From IMG/VR virus record IMGVR_UViG_3300002334_000208: DNA of 64,000 bases. The stretch is one strand, 5' to 3'. The stretch is from a virus. Taxonomy: Duplodnaviria > Heunggongvirae > Uroviricota > Caudoviricetes. Shown here one piece after another: positions 1,887 through 63,982 of the stretch (its first letter is position 1; each line of letters starts with the position of its first letter). Under the pieces are notes generated by a model. It ran no database searches and was not told the DNA's origin. It saw nothing but the letters and a program-made list of their open reading frames with translations. A program made the translations under genes and the position numbers.

Positions 1887-2087
1887 TTAGCCTTCTACTT
1901 TAAAATGCTGTTTCGGTTCTTGCGCATCTGACTTTGTTTTCTCGCCTCCCGAAGGCGCGCCAGTGATACAAATTGTATAGCCTTCAATTGTCTTGAAGTG
2001 AAATACACATTTATGCGAATTGATAGACGAATCGGCAAGCGCAACACTTGGCGCAATTACTAGTAGTGCAATTAAAAGATTTCTCAT
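1887..2087 (-). CDS. small secreted protein with signal peptide (66 aa)
   Basis: N-terminal MRNLLIALLVIAPSVALA signal-like sequence. Confidence 0.4.
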   Translation of the reverse strand: MRNLLIALLVIAPSVALADSSINSHKCVFHFKTIEGYTICITGAPSGGEKTKSDAQEPKQHFKVEG

Positions 2088-2287
2088 GTTGTTTTCTTTA
2101 GGTTTGGGTTTCTAAATAGACGCCCGGCAATGAAACCGGATTCGTAGTCTGCAATCTGGTATTTGTTCCAAGTGTCTGGAATGTCATACCACGATGTTTT
2201 TAAGGCTAGTTTATAGCCTCGCATATATAATTTATTTCCCACATTTGCAGGATCAAAATCTCTTGATAATTTGCAGGAGTCATTCAT
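2084..2287 (-). CDS. hypothetical protein (67 aa)
   Basis: ORF with 4-nt overlap to neighbours, operon-like. Confidence 0.35.
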   Translation of the reverse strand: MNDSCKLSRDFDPANVGNKLYMRGYKLALKTSWYDIPDTWNKYQIADYESGFIAGRLFRNPNLKKTT

Positions 2288-2532
2288 ACCCTTGACTCCC
2301 TTGCATCAGCAAAACCTAAACGGTAAAGCGTTTTTTCCTCCGGGTTGTATAAATGACTCGGGCTTGAAAGTTTATCCCATGCATAGCCCTTGTTAAAGCC
2401 TTCCATATAGAAACGGCTATCGCAATAATCTGGGTTCATGCATTCTTCTGCTGGTCTAATTCGTCGTTTCATGTTCACATCCAGGTTTTGTTTCGTTGCA
2501 TTATACATAGTCGTTATTTTCTTAGAACACAA
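2284..2532 (-). CDS. hypothetical protein (82 aa)
   Basis: ORF. Confidence 0.35.
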   Translation of the reverse strand: MCSKKITTMYNATKQNLDVNMKRRIRPAEECMNPDYCDSRFYMEGFNKGYAWDKLSSPSHLYNPEEKTLYRLGFADARESRV

Positions 2533-2590
2533 GCCGATTCGTTTTAGTTGGTTTATAGAGCGTTAATGTTCAGAAAAAATTTTACCTAGC

Positions 2591-2780
2591 ACATAAAAGT
2601 TGCGTGTGAATTTTTTCGAGTGCATAAAAGTTGCGTGTGAATTTTTTCGAATACATAAAAGTTGCGTGTGAATTTTTTGCCGGTTCAAAATTTTCGTGTG
2701 GAAATTTTCCACTCACATAAAAATCGGTCTGTCAATTTTTCGACCAACAAAATTTTGGTATGGTTAATTTTCCGTTAACG
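2591..2780. repeat. about 6 degenerate tandem copies of a ~30-bp unit (CATAAAAGTTGCGTGTGAATTTTTTCGA)
   Basis: three near-perfect copies at 2591-2680 followed by degenerate copies; each carries an AAAANTT...AATTTT imperfect palindrome. Confidence 0.7.
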
Positions 2781-3030
2781 TAATTTCACACGTTAACCTT
2801 AATTCGTAAGGTTAACAAATGTTTAATTTTGCAAAACGTTAACCTTAATAATTATGATGAACATTGGTTAACGATTGACAACAAATCGTTTCCAGACTAA
2901 GTTAACAAAAGATGAAATTCACATTTCGTTAACCTTAACGAATCGTTAACTGGTTAACGTTAAGATTTTGTTAACCACGTTTTTTAACGATTTGTTAACC
3001 ATCTTTTTTCACCAAGTCCGTTAACCATGC
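2770..3030. repeat. cluster of >=12 GTTAAC-containing 8-10-mers (CGTTAACC / GGTTAACG iterons) in a gene-free AT-rich region
   Basis: GTTAAC core recurs about every 15-35 bp; a further group at 3820-3895 next to the terL stop. Confidence 0.65.
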
Positions 3031-3149
3031 TGCACGCAGAAACACGGCGAGCCGCAAAAAGCCGTCAAGCAGAAAAATTTCTTCTTCCGCGCTGCGCGCC
3101 GAGAGCTCGCCAAGCAAGCAAGCATGAAATCTTTTTTCTTTCTTTCAGC

Positions 3150-3449
3150 TCAAGCCGGATTACTCCTCAACTCATCCTCTATCACTGCTGAGCTATCCAG
3201 TGCAGCCGTACAGCATTGACCCAAAACAAACTCAAAATTCTCCTGATCGAAATGCCTTGAAGCGTCCTGAATATAATTTGATCTGTCAAATAATTCCTTG
3301 GCGATTTCTTGCTGCTTTAATCTGTACCCATAGAGTGGCATCACTTTTCTATTTTTGACATGCCACAGCTTTTTCCACCAGTGCTGTTTCTTTGCGTCGA
3401 TGGTTTGCATTCGATCATATTCTTCAATTGATTTACCTAAGATTTGCAT
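3150..3449 (-). CDS. hypothetical protein (99 aa)
   Basis: only ORF inside the 1.4-kb non-coding region. Confidence 0.3.
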   Translation of the reverse strand: MQILGKSIEEYDRMQTIDAKKQHWWKKLWHVKNRKVMPLYGYRLKQQEIAKELFDRSNYIQDASRHFDQENFEFVLGQCCTAALDSSAVIEDELRSNPA

Positions 3450-3911
3450 GAATTTTAAATAGCATATATGCCCCCTGGGAGCAAGCGTGAACCGATTCCT
3501 AATTCTGGTTTTCGATCAATAGACCCACCCCATGTTTGAAACTCGCAGGGTCCCTACTGCCTCCTAAAATGTGTGGTGTGGGCATAACACACATGTGTTT
3601 TGAGTTCTCATTTGTATTTAACCGTTTTGTTAAGGAGTTCTAAGAAAATGTGCAAACTCTTAGATCAAAAATAAAGACAAGCAAAATCAGTAACTTAGAG
3701 GATTAGTTCTAAGAAAATGACAGTGCTTGTTCTAAGGAAATCACGGGATTTTGTGTGGTATGTCAGTTACCACAGAGATATACAATTGGATTTGTGGTTA
3801 ATTTTCATGTCAAGTAAAATCGTTTGTTAAGGTTAATAGTAGATTTTCGCCGGGGAAAAAATCGTTTGTTAACCCTACTAATTAAGGTTAACAAACACGA
3901 AAATCTCGCTG

Positions 3912-5642
3912 CTATTTAGAGGCGTCGAGGATCGCTTGTGCTACGGGATGGAGCTCTTTTCCCTCTCTCTTGGCCAGGATATCTTCTCCAATTCTCTTGA
4001 TGATATCTTTTTTTACCCCAGATGTGTCAGCGCCTCCGCGCTTCATTTTCTTGGTGGTGCCAGAAATCTTAACCTTAACATGATTTAGGTATTGACTTGT
4101 CATGTCTACTGAGTCGTCATTTTTCCCGAAAGGAAATGAAACAAGTTCTAATTCATAGTCAGGTAACCACTCAGCACGCACCGGTAGGTTCACTAACCCT
4201 CCCTCAATCATTGGGGTGGCACCATCCATACGGAACTCTTTGGAGTTGTTGTTGGTACTGATTGCAATCACTGGATGTGGTCCTTGACCCTTGCCTTGTG
4301 TCTGAATGTATTGGGTCCCTGATCCTTTGTCTTCCACCAACACAGCATCAACATTCCATGCCGTACCAACAGTGTTTATTGTTTTGACAAGCTCATTGAA
4401 TTCTAATTTTTCTCTCTTGATGTAGGCGAGGTAATGCTGTCCATCCTTGGTCTCAATCCACACACCAATTGATGTGAAATCCGCACGCTCATTTTTCTTG
4501 TTGGCTGTATCTACTGACAGCAATATTTTCTTCCATTCTCTTCTATCTGGCAATCTTTCGTATCGACCGAACCAAGAAAGATTTATCACGTTGCCTTCTT
4601 CATCCACAGGGTTGCCCATGTACAGAGAATTCCAATCTCGTGATTCGAGAGTAGCTTTCAAGTTCATCAAAATTTCGTATGTGTAGAAATCAGGCCATAG
4701 CGGTTCGTTCAATTTCCTTCCCATTGGATCATTTTCTTCATCGATACATATTGCTGGCACGTTGATGATATTCCAAGGAAGGCCTCTACCCTCTTTATTC
4801 ATATCTTCAATACGTGCTGCAAGATCATCATTGTTCCACCGCGTCATAATCAAAAATAGCGGAGCATGTGGGAGTAGTCTGGTTGTGAAATCAGCAGAGA
4901 ACCAGTCCCATACTTCTTGACGTGTTGTAGGGCTCTCTGCATCTTTTCTCAATGCGAATGGATCATCAATACCGGCACAACTAGCACGGAAGCCAGCGAT
5001 GCCCACGCCCACGCCTTTTGTATAATATTTAGCACCGGTTGTGACCGCCCATGTTCCAGCAGCTTTGGTATCTTTTGTCAGTTCGACATCTGGAAATACA
5101 TCTCTGTACCTTTGACTATCCACCATCGCTCTGGTTGGTTTACCAAATTCGCTTTCGCAGAATGCCTGGGTGTGTCCCCCTTGAAGATATTTATGTCTTG
5201 GGTTTCTTCCTATATACCACGATGGAAAGCGCCGTGATCCGTACTCTGACTTTGCATGTCCCGGAGCCATGGAAATTGACATTCTCATGAAGCCTTCTTC
5301 CCGGCGCTCCATCTTCATAAGCTGTTCACATAGCCAGACGTGGTGGTCGGCTGGTGGTTCATCCGGTACCATATATTCAGCATAGGCAGTGAGATCGTTT
5401 GGTGCCAGCAATTTTAGATGGTCCATGTAGCCTTTCTCAGTTGTGGCATGCATTTGTTCGAGAGCTTTCAACTGCCCTGTAACAGAAGACGTACCCAGGA
5501 GTGTAGTTAACTTTTCTGTTAAGTACGCATCTGGTTTCAATTTTTTGTAGAGACAATCTTCAAGGTGATCTTTTTGATCTGCGAGCGTTTTGATCGCGCC
5601 TCGAATGATCTTTCTCTGATCATGGGGAAGTGGTTGTACCAT
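3912..5642 (-). CDS. terL: terminase large subunit
   Basis: 576 aa; N-terminal ATPase region with SMAPGHAKS P-loop-like motif, C-terminal nuclease region (LIMTRWNNDDL, VLVEDKGSG). Confidence 0.8.
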   Translation of the reverse strand: MVQPLPHDQRKIIRGAIKTLADQKDHLEDCLYKKLKPDAYLTEKLTTLLGTSSVTGQLKALEQMHATTEKGYMDHLKLLAPNDLTAYAEYMVPDEPPADHHVWLCEQLMKMERREEGFMRMSISMAPGHAKSEYGSRRFPSWYIGRNPRHKYLQGGHTQAFCESEFGKPTRAMVDSQRYRDVFPDVELTKDTKAAGTWAVTTGAKYYTKGVGVGIAGFRASCAGIDDPFALRKDAESPTTRQEVWDWFSADFTTRLLPHAPLFLIMTRWNNDDLAARIEDMNKEGRGLPWNIINVPAICIDEENDPMGRKLNEPLWPDFYTYEILMNLKATLESRDWNSLYMGNPVDEEGNVINLSWFGRYERLPDRREWKKILLSVDTANKKNERADFTSIGVWIETKDGQHYLAYIKREKLEFNELVKTINTVGTAWNVDAVLVEDKGSGTQYIQTQGKGQGPHPVIAISTNNNSKEFRMDGATPMIEGGLVNLPVRAEWLPDYELELVSFPFGKNDDSVDMTSQYLNHVKVKISGTTKKMKRGGADTSGVKKDIIKRIGEDILAKREGKELHPVAQAILDASK

Positions 5643-6241
5643 TATTCAGTTGCATCTTTCAAATCTGCATCCTCAGTAAAACCAATGTCGTCTGCAGCTA
5701 CGATGTTTACTTTTGGTTTCTGACTCATCTCTCTCGCGAAATCTAATATCATTCCAATGGATGTGGTATCTGGTAGTTTGTTGTCGTTTCGTCTTCCATC
5801 AGGGTCCCGAGTTGTTCCTTCTTCCAGCACAGCCCAGAGCATAGCAATCGCTTTGTTCGATGCAGATATCTGTCCAACTTCTTGAGCCAGCACAACGTTG
5901 TGCATCAGGTGGGCGAGAAGATATGTTTTTGTGATTTTGAGTTCTTGGATCGCTGTGATTGTATCCACGTCACCAATTTCATTCGCTTGGTGCATGATCA
6001 GAGCATGGCGGTTCTGTGCCATTGACTTTTGCAACCACACTATGCGCTGTTTTACTTCTGGATAATTTGCTGTACGAGATGCCCCTGAACCTGTCTGTGA
6101 AAATCCGGCACCGATGTATGCTGGAGCCTGCTCCATACCCACAGATAAATTCTGCGCATACATTTCGTGGCGTGCGTTCGCTAATGGTACCTCTGGTAAA
6201 GGGAGTTGTTTCGGTCTATTTGGTGTTTTAGCATTACTCAT
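5642..6241 (-). CDS. terS: terminase small subunit
   Basis: 199 aa directly upstream of and overlapping terL; N-terminal HTH pattern ARHEMYAQNLSVGMEQAPAYIGAGFS typical of TerS. Confidence 0.55.
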   Translation of the reverse strand: MSNAKTPNRPKQLPLPEVPLANARHEMYAQNLSVGMEQAPAYIGAGFSQTGSGASRTANYPEVKQRIVWLQKSMAQNRHALIMHQANEIGDVDTITAIQELKITKTYLLAHLMHNVVLAQEVGQISASNKAIAMLWAVLEEGTTRDPDGRRNDNKLPDTTSIGMILDFAREMSQKPKVNIVAADDIGFTEDADLKDATE

Positions 6242-6318: not shown

Positions 6319-6852
6319 TCAGCTCTCAAAGCGTTTTAAAGGCCCTCTAAGCCGTATTCCATGTGATAAGAGACCAAAGAGCGCGATCATAGCCGCTTCC
6401 GCCCTACCATCATCTTTTACCCGTTTGAACGTCTCTTCAAAGTCAGGGAAGAGCTTCATTGCTAGATTTCGGGCCCCTGTCTTACTCGCTGGGCATCCCA
6501 TCTTCGACTTCCATGACTGTGGGCGCGTTCTAAAGAGTTCGACATCTGACGCCATCATCACCCCCCGCACCAATCCGTACCGGTCGCCAAAATTGAATGC
6601 GCCTACGTGTCCATCATGTGGCATCGACCAGACATCCTCAATGTAAGCAACGACATCGCCTTCTGGAGGGAGCATATTATAGATCGCTCGACCATCCACT
6701 TCATTTCTCTTCTTTGACTTTCCTACCGGGATCATGGGCATGTCATGAATATCCATCACTAATGTATTTGGATTGATGAACGCCAGCGCACCGTGTGCTC
6801 CCGGATCGATACCAATGAATGTGGGTTTTGTTTCCATGTTGTAGTTAACCAT
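6319..6852 (-). CDS. RuvC-like Holliday junction resolvase
   Basis: N-terminal FIGIDPGAHGALAF motif (RuvC/YqgF fold), 177 aa. Confidence 0.55.
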   Translation of the reverse strand: MVNYNMETKPTFIGIDPGAHGALAFINPNTLVMDIHDMPMIPVGKSKKRNEVDGRAIYNMLPPEGDVVAYIEDVWSMPHDGHVGAFNFGDRYGLVRGVMMASDVELFRTRPQSWKSKMGCPASKTGARNLAMKLFPDFEETFKRVKDDGRAEAAMIALFGLLSHGIRLRGPLKRFES

Positions 6853-7515: not shown

Positions 7516-8088
7516 ATGAGATGCAATGACTGTTTACAAAAGGCTACAAATATGACTGACAAAGAGATAATTGACCAGCTAATCAAAGAGTATCTCAGCA
7601 TCGTTTCTGCTTACGATCAGGTTGCGTTGGTTAAACCCGAACTCTTATATATGCCACAACACGGCCCACAACACCTGAAAGATTCATTACAATTGGTTCA
7701 GGGAAAGAATGATTTGGAGACCGTGCTCAAGCGCTATAATAGATCAGTCACTCAATTAAACAAGCGTCTTCATTCAGCCAATAAACCGCGCAGCAGTCAC
7801 GTTGCGTTCATAGACATTGTTTCATTGCGTAAACATTATGATGGCACCAACCGATACAACCTCTCGAACAACTCTTATGTGGACACTGTAATTTCTGCGA
7901 TCCAAAAACACATCCCGGCACCGAAACTAAAAGCTTTCGACAATCTCGTGGAGCAAGCGCGCATTGGTGAGTACATGCAGCAGCGCGTTCCCAACGGCAC
8001 ACTCAAAGATTTTGACCTGCTGATTACCAACGCCGAGGAATGGCGAAAACACACGATCCGTGAAAAACACAAAGCGAGCAAAGCATGA
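7516..8088 (+). CDS. hypothetical protein (190 aa; possible start 7552)
   Basis: ORF, first gene of plus-strand block. Confidence 0.4.
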   Translation: MRCNDCLQKATNMTDKEIIDQLIKEYLSIVSAYDQVALVKPELLYMPQHGPQHLKDSLQLVQGKNDLETVLKRYNRSVTQLNKRLHSANKPRSSHVAFIDIVSLRKHYDGTNRYNLSNNSYVDTVISAIQKHIPAPKLKAFDNLVEQARIGEYMQQRVPNGTLKDFDLLITNAEEWRKHTIREKHKASKA

Positions 8089-10236: not shown

Positions 10237-10664
10237 TCAAGAAACTCAGAGCAAAGGTAGACGCCTTGGAATATGAGTTGTCACAGGCAATCGGCGTAGA
10301 AATGATCGACAACATACGCGCTCAGCTGAATGAAGCCAAGCATGAACGCGATCATTATGAAGATGCGCTGGACGTAGAGGTTGAAAAAGACTGCTCGACG
10401 GCATCAGACATCTTGGATAAAGTACAAGAAGACAGCCGGAATTCAATGTACACTCAAGCTAATCGCCGCGATCTTTTGATCGAGTATATCGCCAATGCTT
10501 TAGGCGCTGTTAGAGAAGAAACAGTTGCCGCCATGGATGATATGCATGACCTGCAACCCTTCATGACAGAAGCTCAAAAAATTGCTGACCTTGACATAGG
10601 TAACATGTCTGTGCGAGATATAGCATCGAAACTCAAAGCGGCACACGCTAAGGAAAAAGCATGA
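10233..10664 (+). CDS. coiled-coil protein
   Basis: heptad-rich sequence, ATGA overlap with upstream gene. Confidence 0.4.
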   Translation: MIKKLRAKVDALEYELSQAIGVEMIDNIRAQLNEAKHERDHYEDALDVEVEKDCSTASDILDKVQEDSRNSMYTQANRRDLLIEYIANALGAVREETVAAMDDMHDLQPFMTEAQKIADLDIGNMSVRDIASKLKAAHAKEKA

Positions 10665-11527
10665 CCACAACAGAATATGAAAATTTAAAATCTCAGGTAC
10701 ACGATGGGCTATCCAATGTTGAGCATAAGATAAAAGGCAACGCGCCGTACAAAGAGAAGCTTGACGCAGCTACAAAATTGGTAGCCGCCCGGCAAGCGCT
10801 GGAGACATACAAAAAATGTGCCCCGCCGATGCACGAAGACGCTGCTGCTTTTGAAAGATTAGCTACCGAAGATGTAGATCGCAAAGCTGATAAGATTGTC
10901 GCGCGCCGAGCAAAATTCGCCCGGGATATTGACTCGGTTGCTCTACCCAGCTTGAAAAATTTTGACAGCATTGCAAGTCTCCTTGGCATTAAAGATTCGA
11001 ACTATACCAGCGAGACCGGCAACGCCCTGCATACGTCAATCAACTTCATGATGATCTGCAAATACATTGCTGTGATGGAAGAAAACTATGACGCATTGCT
11101 TGATCAGCAATCATCGCACAACCGCGAGCATTATCTCCCGGATCGTGAGCCCAATGATTTTGAGGTTATTCAAAAAGAGATGGCTGAAACATTCAATCCC
11201 ATGGTCAAATTTCAGGCAGTCGAGGAAAGTAAAAGCATCACACAACGCTGCAAAGAAACACTCGACATACACCGCAAAGAAGATTGGTCTGTCTATCTAA
11301 AACAGGCGCGACTGATCTCATATCTGCAGATCACCGATGTATCTGTAAACGGGATTGCCAAGCGACTCAAATACCTGGCTGAGCAGAGAGACGATCTCAC
11401 TACCGGAGTCGTGCCACCAGCAAAAGTGACTGAATCCAGCGGCACCACGCACATCATCACAGAGACGGTGGACAAGAATACGATCATCATGAATGGACGT
11501 AAAACGGATGGAGGATCATCGATATGA
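10661..11527 (+). CDS. hypothetical protein (288 aa)
   Basis: ORF, operon overlap. Confidence 0.45.
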   Translation: MTTTEYENLKSQVHDGLSNVEHKIKGNAPYKEKLDAATKLVAARQALETYKKCAPPMHEDAAAFERLATEDVDRKADKIVARRAKFARDIDSVALPSLKNFDSIASLLGIKDSNYTSETGNALHTSINFMMICKYIAVMEENYDALLDQQSSHNREHYLPDREPNDFEVIQKEMAETFNPMVKFQAVEESKSITQRCKETLDIHRKEDWSVYLKQARLISYLQITDVSVNGIAKRLKYLAEQRDDLTTGVVPPAKVTESSGTTHIITETVDKNTIIMNGRKTDGGSSI

Positions 11528-11886
11528 TTCAATTCCTAAAACGCATCCGAGCAGTGGGTAACCCATTCCGAAATCCATTCCGCAACTGGCGTGAGATCAC
11601 ACTACGCCAAGTTTGGCGCTTCGTCTGGTTCTGGGCTAAAGCATTAGCCATTGGAGCAGTCGTCATGTGGCTATGGAGCGTGTTTGAGGAAAGTATCGAA
11701 CAACAGAAAGCGCGCGAACGTGCCGGACCTCAAGTTGGGCAGATATTGATCATCAAACCGTTCAATGAACTGGGCAGAGTGGAAAGAATTGAATGCTCTG
11801 TGAGGCCCTGCCTCTATTACATCTTGATGAAAGGTGGAGTGGAGCGCGCAATTACCGGGGACGAAATAATCAGAAACGCAGGTTGA
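11524..11886 (+). CDS. membrane protein, paralog A (KPFNELGRVE motif)
   Basis: TM helix plus motif IIKPFNELGRVERIEC shared with next gene. Confidence 0.45.
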   Translation: MIQFLKRIRAVGNPFRNPFRNWREITLRQVWRFVWFWAKALAIGAVVMWLWSVFEESIEQQKARERAGPQVGQILIIKPFNELGRVERIECSVRPCLYYILMKGGVERAITGDEIIRNAG

Positions 11887-11892
11887 GAATCA

Positions 11893-12180
11893 ATGACTTC
11901 GAAGGTAAAAATAATTTTGTGCATTATTGCATTGGTCGGTGGTCTCGTTATTTTCAACATACGCCAGACCGAACTAGCATTGGAAGCTTCGGTGCCATAT
12001 CGCATGGGTGACATGATAGAATACAAACCGTTCAATGAACTGGGCGTGGTCGAAGATGTATGGTGTGCAGTTAGCACTGAGCGTTGCTTTCTTAAATTAA
12101 CCATACGAGAAGGTAGACAGGTGACAATCGCCGTTGAGAATGTTACTAAAACAATAATAAAAATTGGAGACCGCAAATGA
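11893..12180 (+). CDS. membrane protein, paralog B (KPFNELGVVE motif)
   Basis: TM helix plus IEYKPFNELGVVEDVWC; tandem duplicate of previous gene. Confidence 0.45.
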   Translation: MTSKVKIILCIIALVGGLVIFNIRQTELALEASVPYRMGDMIEYKPFNELGVVEDVWCAVSTERCFLKLTIREGRQVTIAVENVTKTIIKIGDRK

Positions 12181-12419
12181 TTCCTGCCAGAGCTGCAGAA
12201 ATAGCTGATGCTGTGCGAGGCACATGCAAAGCCCTGTATCAAGTTGAAAGCAAAGACTTTGATGATGCCGGGGAAGAGCTGATGCAAGTGAAAGGCTTAC
12301 CTGAGGCATTCGACGCCTTGGTGATGTGCTGCGAGGAATGCGAGTGGTGGGTGGACACCCATGAAATCTCCGACCGGCAATTCTGCCATGAGTGCGAAGA
12401 CAATTCAGATACGGAGTAA
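12177..12419 (+). CDS. Cys-rich small protein (80 aa)
   Basis: CCEECEWW...CHECED cysteine clusters. Confidence 0.4.
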   Translation: MIPARAAEIADAVRGTCKALYQVESKDFDDAGEELMQVKGLPEAFDALVMCCEECEWWVDTHEISDRQFCHECEDNSDTE

Positions 12420-12421
12420 GA

Positions 12422-12781
12422 ATGACCAAGCAAATCATGACCGACGACGAAATTGAATCCAGAGTGACATCAATTGTTTCCACCCCATATGGTGAGAACT
12501 CACTCAAAGGCGCACAGATTTTGACCATCCGCAAAGTGGCAACAAATATTCTGGTGCATCAGCGCAACGCCTATCAGGATTACATCTCTGATCTGGAGCG
12601 CCGGTTAAAGCAAGCAGAAGATAGGGCCGATGTATATCAAGATGCCTACAGAAGACTCCCACCAAATACAAAAGGGTTGTCGTATTATCTCCTGCTATAT
12701 TTGACGATCTGCGCTGCAATGTTTGTGGCGTTCATTTCTTTCGTACCATATAGAACATTTATGGATTGGATTACAGTATAA
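12422..12781 (+). CDS. hypothetical protein with C-terminal TM segment (start moved to MTKQIMT)
   Basis: ORF. Confidence 0.4.
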   Translation: MTKQIMTDDEIESRVTSIVSTPYGENSLKGAQILTIRKVATNILVHQRNAYQDYISDLERRLKQAEDRADVYQDAYRRLPPNTKGLSYYLLLYLTICAAMFVAFISFVPYRTFMDWITV

Positions 12782-15932: not shown

Positions 15933-16157
15933 TGTGGCGCCGCGAATACTCAGTCGAAGAAATAGACAAGGCGATCAAGGACTGCCGAGACAACGGTGAA
16001 AAGCCATATGGTTTCCTTGACTACGCCGATCTACGAACCGGCAAATATCGGTATGAATATTTCCTACCTTCCGATTAACCACGTTCCAGTGTTTTGCTTG
16101 TGTTCTAAGAAAATAACGTCTATATGGTATGTAAGAAACAAACACAAGGAAACGCAT

Positions 16158-16385: not shown

Positions 16386-16655
16386 ATGACAAACCAACTT
16401 TCAGATTTTGACCTAGCCGATATTGAATCGGCGTTCAACGGAAAAATGATTGCATTCACACCTGTTTTTGATGGCTCTCTCGGAGTAGCTGTTGCCAATG
16501 AGAAAGGCTACAGTCCTATCGGCAAGAACATGTATCTTGCCGACGATGATCGGTACGACACGGCATCTACAGAAGCCGACCGGCTTAATGAAAAACTTGG
16601 GCTAACTGACGAAGTGGCTACCAAGATCATCATCACCACGATGTTCGCTGGTTAA
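16386..16655 (+). CDS. hypothetical protein (89 aa)
   Basis: ORF. Confidence 0.4.
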   Translation: MTNQLSDFDLADIESAFNGKMIAFTPVFDGSLGVAVANEKGYSPIGKNMYLADDDRYDTASTEADRLNEKLGLTDEVATKIIITTMFAG

Positions 16656-16731
16656 CCATACCAGCCACTTCCGCTTGCTTCTAAGAAAATAACGGTTATA
16701 TTGAGTTCATCGAAACAAGGAGAATTCAAAA

Positions 16732-18045: not shown

Positions 18046-19239
18046 ATGGCTATGACTACACCTTCCGGCAGACACTCCTACAGCCCACCGGCAATACAGG
18101 AAGTCAATAGATTATGTCGACGCGGCGTTAAGCCACCATTAACCTACGTTGACTTATCTGATATTGAATCCCGAATACTTGCGCATTATTTAAACCCGGA
18201 GAAAACCATGAAATACGATCTTCATTCAGCTTTAGACGAAATCAGGAAAACCACTTTCAGCGATGATGCCGGTAAACTACTGTCTTACAATAATGCCTTC
18301 AACTGGATTGAAGAGCAGGATACGCTGGACAGCAAACGCATTTCAGAATTATCCGGTAAAGATGCTCAGATCAGAGACATGCAAAAATTGCTCGAAGAAA
18401 AAGAGGTGCTTAACGGCACCCTTATGGAATACGCCGAAGAGCAGCAGAGCGAAGATATCGAAGACGCAAATGAACTGATTGCACTACGTAAGCAAGCTGC
18501 TGACGATGCCGAAAGAATCCGTCATCTGATCGCAGATAAGCAAAATCTCCAAGATCATATTTTGATGTTTGGCAAAGCTAATCCCGATCTGGCTGATCTG
18601 ATGCGAAAATCAGATCAGTACGATACACTATTGCGCCAACATGATGAGTTGGAAAAGTGCCGGACCAATCAAGGTCACACTATTGCACTAATGCGGGAAC
18701 GAGCCGATGAACATGAGAAGAAGATGGAGACGGCGGAGCTAGTTGCTGCCAATCTCAGACTAGCTCTGGTAGAGGAAGCGCGCGATGCCTCCTCCTACAA
18801 AGATAGTTATGCAAAATCAAATGATGCGTACTCCGCCGCCGTGAAAACGAGAGAGCATGCCCTTGACACCGTGGCACGTCAGGAAGACATAATTTACACT
18901 CAAAAAGAGGAAATTGAGGGTCAGAATATAAGAATTGAAACGCTGAATCAAACTAAGAAAAAAATGAGTCAGCAGATATATTCTTTGGATCGTAAACACG
19001 AACAGTTTACAAGAAACACAGGATTTGTCACCGGAAGATCGGATCATACGATCAAAAATGAAAGTGCTTCGCCAAGTCTTAGCACTTATGGATCAAGCAC
19101 TCATCTTAATAACAACAAACCGATGAGCATCAAGCTAGCAATACATCAAATGAAGAACAGTCTCGCAATGCAGGGCTATAATCATTATCGTTTTCTTGAC
19201 GATCCTGCATTCAAATGGTTGGAGGAAAAGTATGGGTAA
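18046..19239 (+). CDS. large coiled-coil protein (397 aa)
   Basis: long heptad-rich central region. Confidence 0.45.
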   Translation: MAMTTPSGRHSYSPPAIQEVNRLCRRGVKPPLTYVDLSDIESRILAHYLNPEKTMKYDLHSALDEIRKTTFSDDAGKLLSYNNAFNWIEEQDTLDSKRISELSGKDAQIRDMQKLLEEKEVLNGTLMEYAEEQQSEDIEDANELIALRKQAADDAERIRHLIADKQNLQDHILMFGKANPDLADLMRKSDQYDTLLRQHDELEKCRTNQGHTIALMRERADEHEKKMETAELVAANLRLALVEEARDASSYKDSYAKSNDAYSAAVKTREHALDTVARQEDIIYTQKEEIEGQNIRIETLNQTKKKMSQQIYSLDRKHEQFTRNTGFVTGRSDHTIKNESASPSLSTYGSSTHLNNNKPMSIKLAIHQMKNSLAMQGYNHYRFLDDPAFKWLEEKYG

Positions 19240-29614: not shown

Positions 29615-29690
29615 TGGAGACATAGGTGGGAATCGAACCCACATGTGAAGATTTGCAGTCAACTGCGCTTACCGTTTCCGCCACTATGTC
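29615..29690 (-). tRNA. tRNA-like gene, 76 nt with encoded CCA; anticodon GCA (Cys) if the loop is placed as CUGCAAA
   Basis: reverse complement GACATAGTGGCGG...GTGGGTTCGATTCCCACCTATGTCTCCA. Perfect 7-bp acceptor stem, perfect 5-bp T stem with canonical TTCGATT loop, 3-bp D stem. The anticodon stem has two U-U mismatches, so it may score as atypical or pseudo. Confidence 0.5.
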
Positions 29691-34739: not shown

Positions 34740-35123
34740 AAAAACCTACTTACGTTCAAAATCTGATACTGGGATATACCACGCAAAATTAACTATGACA
34801 AGAAAAAACTTGCAACGGTTTCAACTTTCTTGCTATAAAGTAAGCTGAAATTAAGGATTTATTATGGCTAAAGCATTTACTAACCCCAACTTAGAATGCC
34901 TATGCGCGCGCGTCCCAATAGACAAGTCGATGCTGATTGTTACCAAAGAACGCCGCCTCGTTGCAGCGTTCCATAAAGATTGCCCGGAACATGGCTGGAA
35001 AGAAACAATCCCTAAGAATGCGGTCGTCATCGTCCGTTAACCATTCTAAGAAAATAACGTTGTATTCTTAGAACATTAATCCTAGATTGAGAGGGAGTTA
35101 CTACCACTTACTAGGAGTTACTA

Positions 35124-35711
35124 ATGACAATCAAACGTGCAAAAGTTTTGACAGACAAACAATTCAGCAAACTGATGAAGCACCTCGCGGAGGGATTAAA
35201 CCCAGAGCGCGACCATGTGATGTTTGCTCTCTCATTTAAGTGCGGACTGCGCGCACAGGAGATTGCCGGGTTGAACTGGATTGACGTGACGGACGCCGAG
35301 GGGAACATCTACAAGCCGGATACAATGATCGAGTTGCCCCACTCAATTACGAAAGGCTCCGTGACAGAGGGTAAAATCATCATGCACAAGTTGGTATATA
35401 ACACATTGAAGAATCTGCGCAAAGCAAATTTGTCTGAATTTCTTATGCCAGCGCCACGCTCACCTTCTGGGCGCATGTCCACAAACAACGTGACAGTTTA
35501 TATGCATGCCGTGTTCAAGAAGCTCGGTTATGTTGGCTGCTCCAGCCACTCCGGGCGGCGCACGTTTGGCACAAAGTTGGCGCGTATTGCCAACAAGCAA
35601 GGAGGCTCTTTCGTGGATGTGAAAGATTTACTCCGCCACAAAGACATTCGAACGACACGAGCATATGTTGATTCTAGTGACACGCAGAAGAAGATGATTG
35701 CCGCAATATAA
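35124..35711 (+). CDS. short tyrosine recombinase (integrase/invertase catalytic domain only)
   Basis: box I GLRAQEIAGL, box II HSGRRTFGT, LLRHKDIRTTRAYVD with catalytic Tyr; only 195 aa. Confidence 0.65.
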   Translation: MTIKRAKVLTDKQFSKLMKHLAEGLNPERDHVMFALSFKCGLRAQEIAGLNWIDVTDAEGNIYKPDTMIELPHSITKGSVTEGKIIMHKLVYNTLKNLRKANLSEFLMPAPRSPSGRMSTNNVTVYMHAVFKKLGYVGCSSHSGRRTFGTKLARIANKQGGSFVDVKDLLRHKDIRTTRAYVDSSDTQKKMIAAI

Positions 35712-38106: not shown

Positions 38107-38769
38107 ATGACAAAGAGTATCGACACAAGATTGAATTTTCGCACAGTAACGCAACTCATCGAATTAGATGAATTTGATGTCACAAAGGTCAGTATTTTAG
38201 ACATAGCAGAAGGCCTCTGCAAAGCCAACCGATACTCAGGTCAATATGAAGGCGACCATATGTGTTCTGTCGCACAACATTCCGTTCATGTCTCTATGAT
38301 GATCGAGCAGGAGATGTCCGATCCACGCGCTGGGTCTTTCCATACCGCCGATTACGAACGTAAACACATCGACTGCATGGCGATGATGGGCTTGATCCAC
38401 GATGGGTCCGAAGCTTACATGGGCGACATGGCAACGCCTTTCAAAAAGAAAATGCCGGACTTTCAAATCATTGAAGAACAATTTCAAAACGCAATCTACG
38501 AAAGATATCTCGGCAAGGTGCTGACTGAGGAAGAAGAAAATCTTCTCAAGTTGTATGATTTCCGAGTGTTTAATATGGAGTGCCGTGCGCTCATGCGTCC
38601 GTGCGTTGATGATCAAAACATCATTGGAACAATGTTCGCCGGTGAAACATTCGAAACAACTTTCGGTCATCGTGTTGCCTGGTGGGATATCCCGCTCGCT
38701 CGCACCAGATTTCTCGAACGGTATGTTGATCTATCAAACCGTTTAAACATTCTGGCGGACGCAGCATAA
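38107..38769 (+). CDS. HD-domain phosphohydrolase (YfbR-like 5'-deoxynucleotidase)
   Basis: VAQHSVHV and GLIHDGSEAYMGD (H..HD..D metal motifs). Confidence 0.6.
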   Translation: MTKSIDTRLNFRTVTQLIELDEFDVTKVSILDIAEGLCKANRYSGQYEGDHMCSVAQHSVHVSMMIEQEMSDPRAGSFHTADYERKHIDCMAMMGLIHDGSEAYMGDMATPFKKKMPDFQIIEEQFQNAIYERYLGKVLTEEEENLLKLYDFRVFNMECRALMRPCVDDQNIIGTMFAGETFETTFGHRVAWWDIPLARTRFLERYVDLSNRLNILADAA

Positions 38770-39374
38770 TGTCACAAATTCCTAATACAGACCCAGCAAT
38801 GTCGAAGTCCAATTTCGACCGCATCGACAATGACTTTTATCCAACGCCAAGTTGGATAACTAAGAATGCTATTATGATCATGGAAGATGAAATGATCCTG
38901 CGCTCCGATGATTTGATTTGGGAATGTGCAGACGGTCAAGGGCATATATCCGATGTGTTTAAGAAGCACGGATACAATGTGCTTCAAACAGACTTAAACC
39001 CTCAATTAGAAGGCGTTGCTACTTCTGACTTTCTGAAAGAATATAAGACGTATCACTCAGGCATGATTTTTACCAATCCACCCTACGGACCGCTTGCGGA
39101 GGAATTCATCCGGCATGCGTTGAAATTGATGAAGGGCTGTCAAGGTAAAGTGGGAATGATACTCAGGAATGAATTTGATTGTGGCAAAAACCGTATGGAT
39201 ATTTTCTCGCATCATCCGGCATTTCGTGCTAAAATAGTTCTCACGACTCGCCCAAGATGGATCGAAGGCACTACAGGTAGCCCTCGCCACAACTTCTCAA
39301 TATTCATTTGGGATTGGGCGCACACAGGCCCAGCAGAATTATTTTACATGAACAAAAATTCAGACTTAAACTAG
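38769..39374 (+). CDS. DNA methyltransferase (N6-adenine or N4-cytosine, NPPY class)
   Basis: catalytic motif IV IFTNPPYG. Confidence 0.65.
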   Translation: MSQIPNTDPAMSKSNFDRIDNDFYPTPSWITKNAIMIMEDEMILRSDDLIWECADGQGHISDVFKKHGYNVLQTDLNPQLEGVATSDFLKEYKTYHSGMIFTNPPYGPLAEEFIRHALKLMKGCQGKVGMILRNEFDCGKNRMDIFSHHPAFRAKIVLTTRPRWIEGTTGSPRHNFSIFIWDWAHTGPAELFYMNKNSDLN

Positions 39375-39388
39375 CAGGACTCTCCCCA

Positions 39389-41035
39389 ATGACCAAGAAA
39401 AACAAAAAGACACCACAGTACGATTTTGCCAACATGACATACGGAGAGTTTCAAGACCTCTATGAAAAATATGGTTCGGAGCGCAAGACGGTGAAAGCCC
39501 TCGGCATCAAACGCACCACTCTCCAGAACTATAAAAAATCAGCATACAAAAGAATGTTCACGGCACAGCGCATGGAAGATGCCACAATCATCTTGCCGAC
39601 CGATCAGGTCCAGGTTTTTATCCTCTCCGCCGCGCAAGACTCTTCAAAAGTCCACAAAGGTTTCTTGAAAAACATCGAAGCGTATGCCCAGCACCGCAAC
39701 GCTGAAATCATGATCGCTGGTTACACCTACAACAAATCAATGTTCGAGGATCATTCAAAAGCTGCTGGCGTTTATGAAAGCTGCCTTGGACCATACCTGA
39801 TTTCAGATCGCGTGATGTTCGGTGAAGACCTGATGTTCTGCGCCGAGGTGAACACGCTGCCAACGGCTGTCAATCCACTATCTGGCATGGCTACATATAC
39901 CGGTCAGGCATCTGGAGTGTTCCCACATGCAAAGTATCATCTGGATTCAATCCCCGTTGACAAAGAATCTAATACCAAGATCATCCAGACCACCGGCACC
40001 ATGACGTACCCGAATTATGTGCAGAAGAAAGCCGGTCAGAAAGCCGAACACTATCACGAAATTGGTGCCTCGGTTGTCGAGCTACTTCCTGATGGTCGTT
40101 TCTTCGTGCGCCACATTGCTGCTGGCAAGAACGGTGATTTCCAAGACCTTGGCTACAAAGTTGAATCTGGCAAGGTCACCGAAGGGCATCGCGTTATGGC
40201 GGTCACTTGGGGTGACATTCACCACGAGAAGAAAGACGATGTGATCAATTATGCATGTTGGGGCGTAGGACCTGATATTGGTTCTCCTTACCTCACCATG
40301 GCAGACGAACTGCGCCCTGAATTCAGTTTCATTCACGACATCATCGACTTCAAACCGCGCAACCACCACAACATCAAAGACCCTCATTTCATGTACGAGA
40401 TGCACATCAGGGGTGAAGCGAACGTCGAAGATACTCTGGCAGAGGCAGCGGATTTCCTCCACAGCATTTGTCACCCAGATACGAAGACCGTTGTTGTCCA
40501 ATCAAATCACGATCTGGCACTGATGACCTGGCTGAAAACTGCCGACTACCGGATCGATCCAGAGAATGCCGAGTTCTTCTTGCGCACCCAAGCAGAGGTG
40601 TATTCTGCCATCAAAGCCAACAACAAAGATTTCCAAGTATTGGCTTGGGCATTCTACCGGTCTTGTGCTGATCTGAATGTAAAATGGTTGGTCGAAGATG
40701 AATCATTCACCATTGCCAATGGCATCCAATGTGGTTGCCATGGACATCTTGGAGCCAATGGTTCTAGAGGTAACCCTATGCAGTTCTCTCGTACTGGCCG
40801 CCGAAGTAATACTGCACATACCCACTCAGCTACTGTTAGAGATGGCGCATGGGTAGCCGGTGTATCTGGCTCTTTAGATATGGGTTATAACAAAGGTTTA
40901 TCTAGCTGGTCTCATTCTCACATTATTACTTTGCAAACAGGTAAGCGGCAAATGGTTACACAGTATCCAGACGGTCTTTGGTGCGCCGATGCACTGCAAG
41001 ACGCATTACAAACAGATTGGCCTCAGTATGGATAG
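39389..41035 (+). CDS. calcineurin-like metallophosphoesterase (start moved to MTKKNKK)
   Basis: WGDIHHE (GDxHG), QSNHDL (GNHD/E), CGHGHLG (GHxH) motifs; N-terminal HTH-like segment. Confidence 0.55.
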   Translation: MTKKNKKTPQYDFANMTYGEFQDLYEKYGSERKTVKALGIKRTTLQNYKKSAYKRMFTAQRMEDATIILPTDQVQVFILSAAQDSSKVHKGFLKNIEAYAQHRNAEIMIAGYTYNKSMFEDHSKAAGVYESCLGPYLISDRVMFGEDLMFCAEVNTLPTAVNPLSGMATYTGQASGVFPHAKYHLDSIPVDKESNTKIIQTTGTMTYPNYVQKKAGQKAEHYHEIGASVVELLPDGRFFVRHIAAGKNGDFQDLGYKVESGKVTEGHRVMAVTWGDIHHEKKDDVINYACWGVGPDIGSPYLTMADELRPEFSFIHDIIDFKPRNHHNIKDPHFMYEMHIRGEANVEDTLAEAADFLHSICHPDTKTVVVQSNHDLALMTWLKTADYRIDPENAEFFLRTQAEVYSAIKANNKDFQVLAWAFYRSCADLNVKWLVEDESFTIANGIQCGCHGHLGANGSRGNPMQFSRTGRRSNTAHTHSATVRDGAWVAGVSGSLDMGYNKGLSSWSHSHIITLQTGKRQMVTQYPDGLWCADALQDALQTDWPQYG

Positions 41036-61963: not shown

Positions 61964-61966
61964 GGC

Positions 61967-63601: not shown

Positions 63602-63982
63602 TTAGGTATCTCTAACTTCGATTATCGGCAAGTTAGGGATTGATCCAGCGTTGAATACTGCTAATGTAATACCAAATTGATCCGTATCAAAGCGGCATAC
63701 AGCGTCAAATTCCAGTGTCACTGATACGTCAGTGCCGGTAGTTGCCGCATGGGTTGAACCAATCGTGACTTCGCCTGTGGTTGTATCTATGGCAACTTGT
63801 GTTGAAGATGGCGCTGTATTGTACACCACCGTTTGCTCAACACCGTTAACCTTAGCGACAACTGTACCATTGACAGGCTTTGAGATCAACCTATTAAATG
63901 ATATCCCACCATCGGTATATGTTCTAAAAAGAGCAAAAGTTGACGTAGAAGTGTCTGTTTGCCCTAAAACTTGATCTGTCAT
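63602..63982 (-). CDS. tail protein (126 aa; the true start may lie upstream of 63982, possibly beyond the window edge)
   Basis: same strand and block; in-frame with downstream gene across one stop codon. Confidence 0.35.
   Translation of the reverse strand: MTDQVLGQTDTSTSTFALFRTYTDGGISFNRLISKPVNGTVVAKVNGVEQTVVYNTAPSSTQVAIDTTTGEVTIGSTHAATTGTDVSVTLEFDAVCRFDTDQFGITLAVFNAGSIPNLPIIEVRDT

What the first reader, a model, noticed from the sequence alone, without database searches (positions are those of the whole stretch)
2591..3900. 1.4-kb gene-free region with tandem 30-bp repeats and a dense array of GTTAAC iterons next to terL
The region holds about six tandem 30-bp units, each with an AAAANTT...AATTTT palindrome. 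These are followed by at least 12 CGTTAACC/GGTTAACG motifs within 260 bp, with three more just downstream of the terL stop (3820-3895). Apart from one weak 99-aa ORF nothing here is coding. Such iteron arrays mark replication origins, partition sites or packaging (pac/cos) sites. Sitting immediately 3' of the large terminase gene favours a packaging site or the physical genome terminus, assembled as if circular. An origin bound by an unknown initiator is the alternative.
Basis: seen in the sequence. Interest (0 to 1): 0.6.

Follow-up and report, generated by a model that had tools for sequence, protein, structure and literature searches.

The report
Host CtrA-box array beside phage terminase
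The GTTAAC repeats next to the phage's packaging gene are most likely a cluster of docking sites for CtrA, the cell-cycle regulator of alphaproteobacterial hosts, a feature already described in related phages, so this is a new example of a known feature and not a new kind of origin or packaging site.

Summary
There are six 31-bp tandem units (2576-2772) and 12 GTTAAC sites in 252 bp (2774-3025), plus two exact sites and one degenerate element just after the terL stop.

The GTTAAC motifs match CtrA boxes. Five exact TTAA-N7-TTAAC boxes and several TTAACC[A/T]T half-sites lie in the array. They are nearly identical to two phiCbK sites that CtrA binds and activates in published work.

The layout is conserved. 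The order is RuvC-terS-terL, a first GTTAAC cluster, about 1 kb of leader, a second array, a promoter, then small genes. It recurs in Lacusarx, phiCbK, phage C1, five metagenomic relatives and 45 IMG/VR loci.

In this lineage the long direct terminal repeat starts at or just after the 3' end of terL. The repeats themselves are regulatory sites, not pac/cos or origin iterons.

The 31-bp array is absent from the closest relative, and its function is unknown. The 99-aa ORF is probably a real gene.

Verdict: a new member of a known kind, of modest interest.

The parts
3912..5642 (-). Large terminase gene (terL). It is the anchor of the conserved RuvC-terS-terL-gap synteny.
   Evidence: Pfam Terminase_6N/6C and phrog_38 at 5e-89. 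It is 37-47% identical to terL of Mwe-JY26, Lacusarx, DSS3P8 and the phiCbK-like phages.
3856..3897 (-). Hairpin followed by a T-run, 15 nt after the terL stop. The arms are two inverted TTAACC half-sites (GTTAAC at 3868 and 3887). It is terminator-like and forms the first, terL-proximal cluster of CtrA-type motifs.
   Evidence: Terminator scan: 15-pair stem then ATTTTTT. RNA fold -26 kcal/mol, z = -5.2. An equivalent GTTAAC cluster lies +20 to +280 nt after terL in L010, Lacusarx, phiCbK and most IMG/VR loci.
3816..3837 (-). Second, degenerate copy of the TTAACCTTAAC element (ATTAACCTTAACAAACGATTTT on the - strand).
   Evidence: Direct repeats D11 and D16, 42 and 55 bp from the hairpin copy. 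Site table.
3785..3813 (-). Candidate sigma-70-type promoter, TTGACA-N17-TCCAAT, with a TTAACCAC element in its spacer.
   Evidence: Hexamer coordinates. Read from the sequence. Inference only: it fell outside the rule set of the promoter scan.
3636..3745 (-). Three copies of ATTTTCTTAGAAC, the core of a promoter/operator cassette used elsewhere in this phage. This block is 83% identical to relative L015.
3515..3560 (-). A single GGGACCCTG-N-TTTCAAA-N-GGGGTGGG unit. It corresponds to a tandem repeat found after terL across the clade.
   Evidence: Copy numbers are phiCbK 6, Lacusarx 5, C1 3, L008 3, L010 4, L006 2, and window and L015 1 each. The block is 84% identical to L015.
3150..3449 (-). 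A 99-aa ORF that is probably a real small gene, with a candidate promoter TTGCTC-N17-TATTTA (3456-3484) that would give a leaderless or near-leaderless mRNA.
   Evidence: Homologue P0123: 99 aa, 50% identity, no gaps, E = 6e-21. It is syntenic in L015. No Pfam or PHROG hit. The promoter and leaderless start are inferred from the sequence.
2760..3028 (.). Main array of CtrA-type boxes. It holds 12 GTTAAC sites and five exact TTAA-N7-TTAAC boxes (2763/2764, 2811, 2935, 2959/2960, 2984). It also holds TTAACCAT half-sites (2760-2767 on the - strand, 2995, 3021) and four TTAACCTT sites (2793, 2811 on the - strand, 2839, 2929), three of them in CGTTAACCTTAA elements (2791, 2837, 2927).
   Evidence: The same array lies in front of the first post-gap gene in L005, L008, L010, L015, Lacusarx, C1 and phiCbK and in 45 IMG/VR loci.
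2576..2772 (.). Six 31-bp tandem units (CATAAAAGTTGCGTGTGAATTTTTTCGAnTn), three near-identical and three degenerate. The closest relative lacks the array. Function unknown.
   Evidence: Absent from L015, which has a gap of about 215 bp in alignment A1. The core occurs nowhere else in the window. T-tract tandem arrays with different sequences and periods of 22-38 bp lie beside the CtrA array in relatives.
2500..2534 (-). Promoter cassette CTTGTGTTCTAAGAAAATAACGACTATGTATAAT for the first gene after the gap.
   Evidence: The aligned part (27 of 48 positions) is 93% identical to L015.
2284..2472 (-). First small gene downstream of the gap, 62 aa from the ATG at 2472. The mechanical ORF call starts at a TTG at 2532, inside the promoter.
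   Evidence: No family hit.

Best explanation
The window comes from an uncultured siphophage of an alphaproteobacterial host, in the phiCbK/Lacusarx/DSS3P8 terminase lineage. The 1.4-kb stretch after terL is the largely non-coding leader of the block of small genes that follows the packaging genes. In cultured relatives that block is the long direct terminal repeat.

The GTTAAC 'iterons' are binding sites for the host response regulator CtrA. They occur as full TTAA-N7-TTAAC boxes and as TTAACC[A/T]T half-sites, in two clusters. One cluster sits on the terL terminator hairpin (3816-3897). The other is a dense array (2760-3028) upstream of the promoter of the next gene.

Phosphorylated CtrA bound there would activate or repress transcription of the downstream small genes by host RNA polymerase. 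This would tie the phage programme to the host's cell-cycle or motility state, the 'lytic deferment' idea.

What is shown and what is inferred:
- Shown here: motif identity, clustering, and conservation of the layout across the clade.
- Shown in relatives by others: CtrA binding and CtrA-dependent transcription.
- Inferred: that CtrA binds here, the sign of the regulation, and that the region lies at a terminal-repeat boundary.

The 31-bp tandem array is a lineage-specific insertion between the array and its promoter. Its role is unknown; it may be a spacer, bent DNA, or sites for a phage protein.
For: 1. Clustering. 12 of 28 GTTAAC sites lie in 252 bp. Exact TTAA-N7-TTAAC gives 9 strand-hits, or 6 sites, against 0.8 expected, and 5 of the 6 lie in 2763-3000. 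TTAACCAT occurs 11 times against 2.6 expected.

2. Match to validated sites. The window boxes TTAACGATTTGTTAACC, TTAAGATTTTGTTAACC, TTAACGAATCGTTAAC and TTAAACATTTGTTAACC closely resemble the phiCbK gp005 and gp018 sites GCGTTAACGGTTTGTTAACAT and TTTTAACGGTTTGTTAACC. CtrA~P shifts those in EMSA, and their promoters lose activity in a ctrA-ts strain (PMC9437464).

3. Precedent. The same paper reports intergenic gaps and DTRs of about 1-1.3 kb that are dense in CtrA sites. It covers phiCbK-like phages, Lacusarx and others, and it notes a TGCGTTAACCAT repeat in Sphingomonas phage MMDA13.

4. Conserved architecture. A gap of 1.4-2.0 kb follows terL, with a GTTAAC array in front of the first downstream gene. 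It is seen in L005, L006, L008, L010, L015, Lacusarx, C1 and phiCbK. A motif-only scan of IMG/VR found 72 stretches. Of these, 45 have a terL homologue alongside, with clusters at about +20 to +280 and about +900 to +1550 nt and then further pairs downstream.

5. The motif is invariant while neighbouring phage proteins diverge (terS 27-56% identical) and while GC content of the gaps ranges from 37% to 53%. That fits a conserved host factor.

6. Host clues. All cultured terL relatives except Mwe-JY26, which is recorded on Microcystis, infect Alphaproteobacteria. The tail genes are of the GTA type: Rcc01698_C, BR0599, DUF2460.

7. Elsewhere in the window TTAACCAT sits about 15 nt upstream of a -35 element (16650) or replaces it (35036). 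The second is the classic layout of CtrA-activated promoters (abstract of PMC11264516).

8. The non-coding blocks are better conserved against L015 (73-93%) than the embedded ORF (63%).
Against: - No binding or expression data exist for this sequence.
- The host is inferred, not known, and 45% GC is low for many Alphaproteobacteria.
- The commonest unit, TTAAGGTTAACG(C), is not the canonical TTAA-N7-TTAA box. In arrays with a 13-bp period (L005, L008) adjacent units do not create canonical boxes. L005 has no exact TTAA-N7-TTAAC box at all, and the single one in L008 lies outside the array. A different, conserved binding protein is therefore not excluded.
- In this window the array lies about 225 bp from the nearest recognisable promoter, because of the 31-bp repeat insertion. 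In relatives the last half-site lies 15-37 nt from the -35.
- With one mismatch allowed, the full-box pattern is only weakly enriched window-wide: 24 against 15.8 expected.
Confidence: 0.7

Rival explanations
1. The GTTAAC arrays are the packaging recognition site (pac-like, bound by TerS/TerL), and they define the physical genome end next to terL.
For: The position directly 3' of terS-terL is conserved in every relative and in 45 IMG/VR loci. In this lineage the left DTR boundary, which is the packaging initiation site, lies at or just after the 3' end of terL. In phiCbK a GTTAACCAT lies 16 nt before the right DTR boundary.
Against: The same motif recurs as pairs in front of many later small genes and at unrelated promoters. 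terS is poorly conserved while the motif is invariant. The phiCbK left terminus lies about 790 bp upstream of its first GTTAAC, inside terL. The motif matches sites shown to bind CtrA.
Confidence: 0.1
2. A conserved phage-encoded DNA-binding protein, not host CtrA, recognises the extended unit TTAAGGTTAACG(C). The canonical CtrA boxes would then be by-products of unit spacing.
For: The 11-13-nt unit is more specific than the CtrA consensus. It is conserved from phiCbK to this phage. In arrays with a 13-bp period the units form no TTAA-N7-TTAA boxes.
Against: Only terL, the RuvC-like resolvase, a weakly conserved terS, one 114-aa protein and the primase are shared across the fetched loci. None is an obvious sequence-specific regulator. 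The reverse complement of the unit is TTAACCTT, a 7-of-8 match to the CtrA half-site TTAACCAT. With a 16-17-bp period (phiCbK, C1, Lacusarx) adjacent units do form full boxes (inference from the sequence).
Confidence: 0.12
3. The region is a replication origin. The 31-bp A/T-tract iterons would bind an initiator, and the CtrA boxes would gate initiation as at the Caulobacter chromosomal origin.
For: Tandem iterons lie beside an array of CtrA-type boxes. T-tract tandem arrays accompany the CtrA array in every relative examined. From general knowledge, the Caulobacter origin carries five CtrA boxes beside an AT-rich region.
Against: The closest relative L015 has no 31-bp array. No initiator gene lies next to the region; the primase/helicase and polymerase genes lie 28-40 kb away. 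No convincing DnaA box was found by eye. The extremes of cumulative GC skew coincide with strand switches at about 8-10 kb and about 50 kb, not with this region.
Confidence: 0.05
4. The repeat-rich leader is a T5-like injection stop signal. It would be a cis-acting block in the terminal repeat where DNA entry pauses by binding a host protein, released later by the A1-like protein.
For: The phage encodes a strong homologue of the T5 A1 'DNA transfer protein' family, phrog_1745 at 9e-172. The T5 iss is a large untranslated, repeat-rich part of the long terminal repeat that carries an array of host DnaA boxes (Davison preprint).
Against: This is analogy only. The A1-like gene lies in the replication module, not in the putative repeat. 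Two-step injection is not known for phiCbK-like phages. Gill et al. argue that their A1 homologues more likely act on transcription.
Confidence: 0.03

Closest known systems
Gap and DTR regions dense in CtrA-binding sites in phages of Alphaproteobacteria (Mascolo et al. 2022, PMC9437464): phiCbK-like phages, Lacusarx, Cp1R7A-A1, vB_BsubS-Delta, MMDA13
   Same: An intergenic stretch of about 1-1.4 kb carries many TTAA-N7-TTAA(C) boxes and TTAACCAT-type half-sites, with a small unannotated ORF inside and small genes of unknown function downstream. The terL lineage is the same as phiCbK and Lacusarx. The box sequences closely resemble the validated phiCbK gp005 and gp018 sites.
   Different: This phage is uncultured, so no binding data exist and its host and adsorption route are unknown. 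The main array is separated from its promoter by a 31-bp tandem repeat insertion. In vB_BsubS-Delta the gap separates divergent modules; here the flanking genes are co-oriented.
Long direct terminal repeats of phiCbK-like phages and Lacusarx, with terL abutting the left boundary (Gill et al. 2012, PMC3556154; Nielsen et al. 2017, PMC5648845)
   Same: The synteny RuvC-terS-terL, non-coding leader, many small genes is shared. So are the sub-elements, in the same order: GTTAAC cluster, GGGACCCTG repeat, small ORF(s), T-tract tandem repeat (here after the array, not before it), GTTAAC array.
   Different: No coverage or terminus data exist here. The genome is smaller (the contig is recorded as about 85 kb). 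In relatives L008 and L010 the portal gene lies only 4-5 kb after terL, so any repeat would be much shorter than 10 kb.
Caulobacter chromosomal origin (Cori), with CtrA boxes next to an AT-rich region
   Same: Several CtrA boxes are clustered beside A/T-rich repeated DNA.
   Different: There are no DnaA boxes and no evidence of replication initiation, and the A/T-tract array is dispensable in the closest relative.
Phage T5 injection stop signal region in the left terminal repeat (Davison preprint 10.1101/866236)
   Same: A large untranslated, repeat-rich segment in a long terminal repeat carries an array of sites for a host master regulator. The phage also has an A1-family protein.
   Different: The host factor differs (DnaA boxes in T5). 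Two-step injection has not been shown in this lineage. The resemblance is architectural only.

Membership tests
CtrA-site-dense gap/DTR region of alphaproteobacterial phages | Many TTAA-N7-TTAA(C) boxes and TTAACCAT half-sites in one intergenic region | tested here: met
   Five exact full boxes, three TTAACCAT and four TTAACCTT sites lie in 2760-3028.
CtrA-site-dense gap/DTR region of alphaproteobacterial phages | Strongly skewed positional distribution compared with the rest of the genome | tested here: met
   5 of 6 exact full boxes and 12 of 28 GTTAAC sites lie in 0.4% of the window, P = 4e-22. Only 64 kb of the genome could be examined.
CtrA-site-dense gap/DTR region of alphaproteobacterial phages | Sites lie in promoter regions of downstream genes | tested here: inconclusive
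   In relatives the last half-site lies 15-37 nt from a sigma-70-like -35. In the window it lies about 225 bp from the nearest recognisable promoter. Other window promoters carry TTAACCAT at or near the -35.
CtrA-site-dense gap/DTR region of alphaproteobacterial phages | The host is an alphaproteobacterium that encodes CtrA | tested here: inconclusive
   Indirect only. All cultured terL relatives except Mwe-JY26 (recorded on Microcystis) infect Alphaproteobacteria, and the tail genes are GTA-type. No host assignment was possible.
CtrA-site-dense gap/DTR region of alphaproteobacterial phages | CtrA~P binds the sites and changes transcription | not testable with these tools
   Shown only for phiCbK gp005 and gp018, Cp1R7A-A1 gp19 and DELTA_120.
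phiCbK/Lacusarx-type genome with a long DTR starting at the 3' end of terL | terL of this lineage with RuvC-terS-terL-gap-small-gene synteny | tested here: met
phiCbK/Lacusarx-type genome with a long DTR starting at the 3' end of terL | Twofold read coverage or mapped physical ends at the boundary | not testable with these tools
   No reads are available. The phage's own contig could not be retrieved.
pac/cos packaging site | A sequence element confined to the packaging start and recognised by the phage's own TerS | tested here: not met
   The motif recurs in front of many downstream genes and at other promoters. It is invariant while terS diverges. Cleavage and TerS binding themselves cannot be tested here.
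Iteron-type replication origin | Iterons conserved among close relatives, an adjacent initiator gene, DnaA boxes or a DNA unwinding element, and a skew switch | tested here: not met
   L015 lacks the 31-bp array. No initiator gene lies next to the region. The skew extremes lie elsewhere.
Intrinsic terminator (hairpin 3856-3897) | A stable stem-loop directly followed by a U-run, downstream of a gene | tested here: met
   A 15-pair stem followed by AUUUUUU lies 15 nt after the terL stop. The fold is -26 kcal/mol with z = -5.2. The stem is AT-rich, with 4 G-C pairs, so its efficiency is uncertain.

The most novel reading that the evidence does not exclude
The two CtrA-box clusters that bracket about 1 kb of conserved leader may do more than tune one promoter. 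That leader sits at the start of the probable terminal repeat and carries the GGGACCCTG and T-tract repeats. The clusters could form a cis-acting checkpoint that couples DNA entry, packaging initiation or replication to CtrA, as proposed for the DnaA-box array in the T5 iss. Alternatively, they could act as a multicopy sponge that titrates CtrA~P and pushes the host into a replication-permissive state.
Probability: 0.1. Interest if true: 0.7.

Novelty: new member of a known kind. Interest (0 to 1): 0.3.

Why it matters
The finding extends the published CtrA-site signature to an uncultured phage of lower GC content. That signature was defined on a few cultured phages.

It also shows that in the phiCbK/Lacusarx terminase lineage the signature has a stereotyped, two-cluster layout anchored to the 3' end of terL. 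The layout is recoverable from motif searches alone: 45 of 72 IMG/VR hits have a terL homologue alongside.

This has three practical uses:
- It gives a cheap marker for predicting an alphaproteobacterial host.
- It helps guess where the terminal repeat starts in metagenomic contigs.
- It points to two further conserved non-coding elements, the GGGACCCTG repeats and the T-tract tandem arrays, for which I found no explanation in the papers I read.

It does not reveal a new kind of origin or packaging signal.

Tried and rejected
- Near-identical DNA search of 2000-6000 against GenBank phages: no match.
- Exact search for the 31-bp unit in IMG/VR: none.
- Look-up of the window's own terL in the contig index, to see contig ends and copy-number variants: not on record.
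- Single-protein terL scans of IMG/VR and JGI metagenomes: only distant fragments.
- Rfam at gathering threshold over the whole window, and at E-value threshold over 2400-4000: only a tRNA-Cys and two chance-level hits. An ncRNA reading was dropped.
- Phage-encoded CtrA: tblastn and phmmer with a CtrA sequence recalled from memory found nothing better than E of about 1 in the window. This is weak evidence, because the query is unverified and about 21 kb of the genome is unseen.
- DnaA boxes in the 31-bp units: only partial TTCACA matches by eye, so rejected.
- HpaI-site avoidance outside the region: not seen.
- GC-skew origin signal at the region: not seen.
- Local RNA stem formed by the TTCTTAGAAC copies: possible in L008 and L010. 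In the window all three gap copies share one orientation, so a protein-binding or promoter reading was preferred.
- Intrinsic DNA curvature of the 31-bp array: the A- and T-tracts are not in helical phase (inspection only), so no claim is made.
Full report
**Observation**

TRF reports a 31-bp unit at 2591-2678 (2.8 copies, 94% match) and a degenerate 62-bp register over 2576-2722. Gapless repeat finding places units at 2594, 2625, 2656, 2686 and 2748. A further degenerate unit at about 2717 is visible in the sequence. That makes three near-identical and three degenerate units.

GTTAAC occurs 28 times in the window against 10.0 +/- 3.2 expected. Twelve of these lie in 2774-3025, with a binomial P of 4e-22. 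Two exact sites (3868, 3887) and a degenerate doublet (3826-3837) follow the terL stop.

terL is 3912-5642(-). A terS-like gene (5642-6241) and a RuvC-like resolvase (6319-6852) lie upstream on the same strand.

**Anatomy, read in the direction of terL (window minus strand)**

1. A 15-pair hairpin plus T-run lies 15 nt after the terL stop. Its arms are inverted TTAACC half-sites, and the fold is -26 kcal/mol with z = -5.2. A second TTAACCTTAAC element and a possible TTGACA-N17-TCCAAT promoter follow.
2. Three copies of ATTTTCTTAGAAC lie at 3636-3745.
3. One GGGACCCTG...GGGGTGGG unit lies at 3515-3560.
4. The 99-aa ORF lies at 3150-3449.
5. The GTTAAC array lies at 2760-3028.
6. The 31-bp tandem array lies at 2576-2772.
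7. A promoter cassette (2500-2534) precedes a 62-aa gene that starts at 2472.

**Relatives**

No close DNA match exists among cultured phages. The nearest cultured terL is Microcystis phage Mwe-JY26 at 47%. Next come DSS3P8-like roseophages, Rhodobacter, Sphingobium (Lacusarx), Erythrobacter and Citromicrobium phages, and the Caulobacter phiCbK-like phages.

Metagenomic terL homologues at 55-62% identity were traced to contigs. Every one has a gap of 1.4-2.0 kb after terL, then small genes, then the portal gene. The gap is free of called genes in L008 and L010 and carries inserted genes in L005 and L006.

GTTAAC is clustered in the same place in each contig, mostly as TTAAGGTTAACG(C). The last copy before a sigma-70-like promoter reads GTTAACCAT or ATTAACCAT.

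Lacusarx, Caulobacter phage C1 and phiCbK show the same two-cluster layout.

I then scanned IMG/VR for TTAAGGTTAAC-N2-25-TTAAGGTTAAC alone. It returned 72 stretches, and 45 of them carry a terL homologue next to the motif. In these, clusters lie at about +20 to +280 and about +900 to +1550 nt after terL, with further pairs downstream.

**What the motif is**

TTAA-N7-TTAAC and TTAACCAT are the published full and half sites of CtrA, the alphaproteobacterial response regulator (PMC9437464).

- Exact full boxes give 9 strand-hits (6 sites) against 0.8 expected. Five of the six sites lie in the array.
- TTAACCAT occurs 11 times against 2.6 expected.
- The window boxes TTAACGATTTGTTAACC, TTAAGATTTTGTTAACC, TTAACGAATCGTTAAC and TTAAACATTTGTTAACC closely resemble the sites upstream of phiCbK gp005 and gp018.

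Mascolo et al. showed that those phiCbK sites bind phosphorylated CtrA in a mutation-sensitive way. They also showed that the promoters depend on CtrA for activity. The same paper describes gaps and DTRs of about 1-1.3 kb that are dense in CtrA sites, in phiCbK-like phages, Lacusarx and unrelated alphaproteobacterial phages. It notes a TGCGTTAACCAT repeat in phage MMDA13.

The motif stays invariant across phages whose terS is only 27-56% identical and whose gaps range from 37% to 53% GC. That fits a conserved host factor. GTA-type tail genes support an alphaproteobacterial host. I found no phage-encoded CtrA in the window, but that test was weak.

**Caveats**

- The dominant unit, TTAAGGTTAACG(C), is more specific than the CtrA consensus.
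- Its reverse complement, TTAACCTT, is a 7-of-8 match to the half-site.
- Arrays with a 16-17-bp period (phiCbK, C1, Lacusarx) generate full boxes across adjacent units. Arrays with a 13-bp period (L005, L008) do not.
- L005 has no exact TTAA-N7-TTAAC box at all, and the single one in L008 lies outside the array.

A different conserved binding protein therefore remains possible.

**Terminus**

Several published and annotated results place the DTR boundary beside terL in this lineage:

- In phiCbK the mapped left end lies in terL codon 652.
- In Colossus it lies just downstream of terL, where the authors place packaging initiation.
- Lacusarx has a 10.5-kb block of double coverage immediately after terS/terL.
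- The annotated repeat of phage C1 starts 62 bp before the terL stop.

By synteny the window's gap probably lies at or just inside the left end of a terminal repeat. I could not test this, because no reads are available and the phage's own contig was not retrievable. The identification of the GTTAAC motifs as pac/cos or origin iterons is not supported.

**The 31-bp array**

The closest relative found, L015, came from the homologue of the 99-aa ORF. It aligns along the whole gap but lacks about 215 bp that contain the six units. The core of the unit occurs nowhere else in the window.

Other relatives carry T-tract tandem arrays with different sequences and periods of 22, 26 or 38 bp. Those lie on the other side of the CtrA array.

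This element class is therefore recurrent but fluid, and this copy is dispensable in a near relative. I can offer only guesses for its role: a spacer or bent DNA between the array and the promoter, or sites for a phage-specific protein. An origin reading is weak. No initiator gene lies next to it, no DnaA boxes were found, and the skew extremes lie at about 8-10 and about 50 kb.

**The 99-aa ORF**

A 99-aa protein with 50% identity, no gaps and E = 6e-21 is encoded at the same position in L015. phiCbK has gp001-003 in the equivalent slot. The ORF is probably real, so the region is not entirely non-coding. The flanking non-coding blocks are better conserved against L015 (73-93%) than the ORF (63%).

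**Verdict**

The finding is genuine, and the sequence is under selection. It is a new member of a described class: CtrA-box-dense leader or DTR regions of alphaproteobacterial phages. Interest is modest. Residual novelty lies in three things: the stereotyped two-cluster architecture tied to terL, the unexplained GGGACCCTG and T-tract repeats, and the possibility that the arrays do more than regulate a promoter.

Noticed in passing
window 3515-3560 (-); L014 (phiCbK) 854-1000; L012 (Lacusarx) 7726-7830; L008 11953-12040; L010 12005-12120: GGGACCCTG-containing units of about 24-32 bp form a tandem array 70-400 nt after terL in most relatives examined. Copy numbers are phiCbK 6, Lacusarx 5, C1 3, L008 3, L010 4, L006 2, and window and L015 1 each. 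L005 has none. Gill et al. 2012 does not mention the motif, and I saw no explanation in the sections of Mascolo et al. that I read.
   Followed up: partly
window 2500-2534(-), 16097-16135(+), 16673-16710(+), 35036-35075(+); partial copies at 3637-3649, 3706-3718, 3729-3741: A repeated promoter/operator cassette, CTTG(T/C)(G/T)TTCTAAGAAAATAACG-N3-TAT(A/G)T. The core gives 11 hits against 2.0 expected. At 16650 a GGTTAACCAT lies about 15 nt upstream of the -35. At 35036 GTTAACCAT replaces the -35, and an inverted second core follows, which looks like an operator.
   Followed up: partly
window 39308-41035 (+): Strong homologue of the T5 A1 'DNA transfer protein' family (phrog_1745, E = 9e-172). 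As in phiCbK-like phages, it lies in the replication module.
   Followed up: partly
window 35124-35711 (+): A short (195 aa) tyrosine recombinase/integrase-family protein (Pfam Phage_integrase, 1e-17). It lies directly downstream of the promoter that has TTAACCAT at the -35, in a phage whose relatives are described as virulent.
   Followed up: no
window 38769-39374 (+): DNA methyltransferase (phrog_799, 1.5e-48; an NPPY motif is visible in the translation). Its target is unknown, and I did not examine whether it touches GTTAAC or GANTC.
   Followed up: no
window 58322-63982 (-): GTA-like distal tail module (Phage-tail_3 + Rcc01698_C, phiJL001 Gp84_N + BR0599, DUF2460). This is a useful clue to an alphaproteobacterial host.
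   Followed up: partly
window 18127-18143: The only exact TTAA-N7-TTAAC box outside the gap. It is palindromic (TTAAGCCACCATTAAC) and lies about 80 nt inside the mechanical ORF 18046-19239. The true start codon may lie downstream of it.
   Followed up: no
L005 8298-8834; L006 11706-12263; terL homologues P0007, P0013, P0035 and others: Mobile elements populate this locus in relatives. HNH endonuclease genes are inserted in the post-terL gap, and LAGLIDADG/Hint (intein) domains sit inside several terL homologues of 830-930 aa.
   Followed up: no
L014 (phiCbK) 10263-10287: A GTTAACCAT lies 16 nt before the experimentally mapped right boundary of the phiCbK terminal repeat (10287). This could be coincidence, or a hint that the motif also marks repeat ends.
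   Followed up: no
L003 (Mwe-JY26) 10490-12700: The stretch about 0.9-3.1 kb downstream of terL in Microcystis phage Mwe-JY26 has no GTTAAC cluster. It is packed instead with other repeats: a 29-bp tandem array and a dispersed repeat of about 90 nt (three copies, D3), which may be a promoter unit. An annotated 'immunity repressor' lies just upstream of this stretch, on the opposite strand. The sequence is GC-rich, which is unexpected for a Microcystis phage.
   Followed up: no
window 29615-29690 (-): A single tRNA-Cys (GCA) gene.
   Followed up: no
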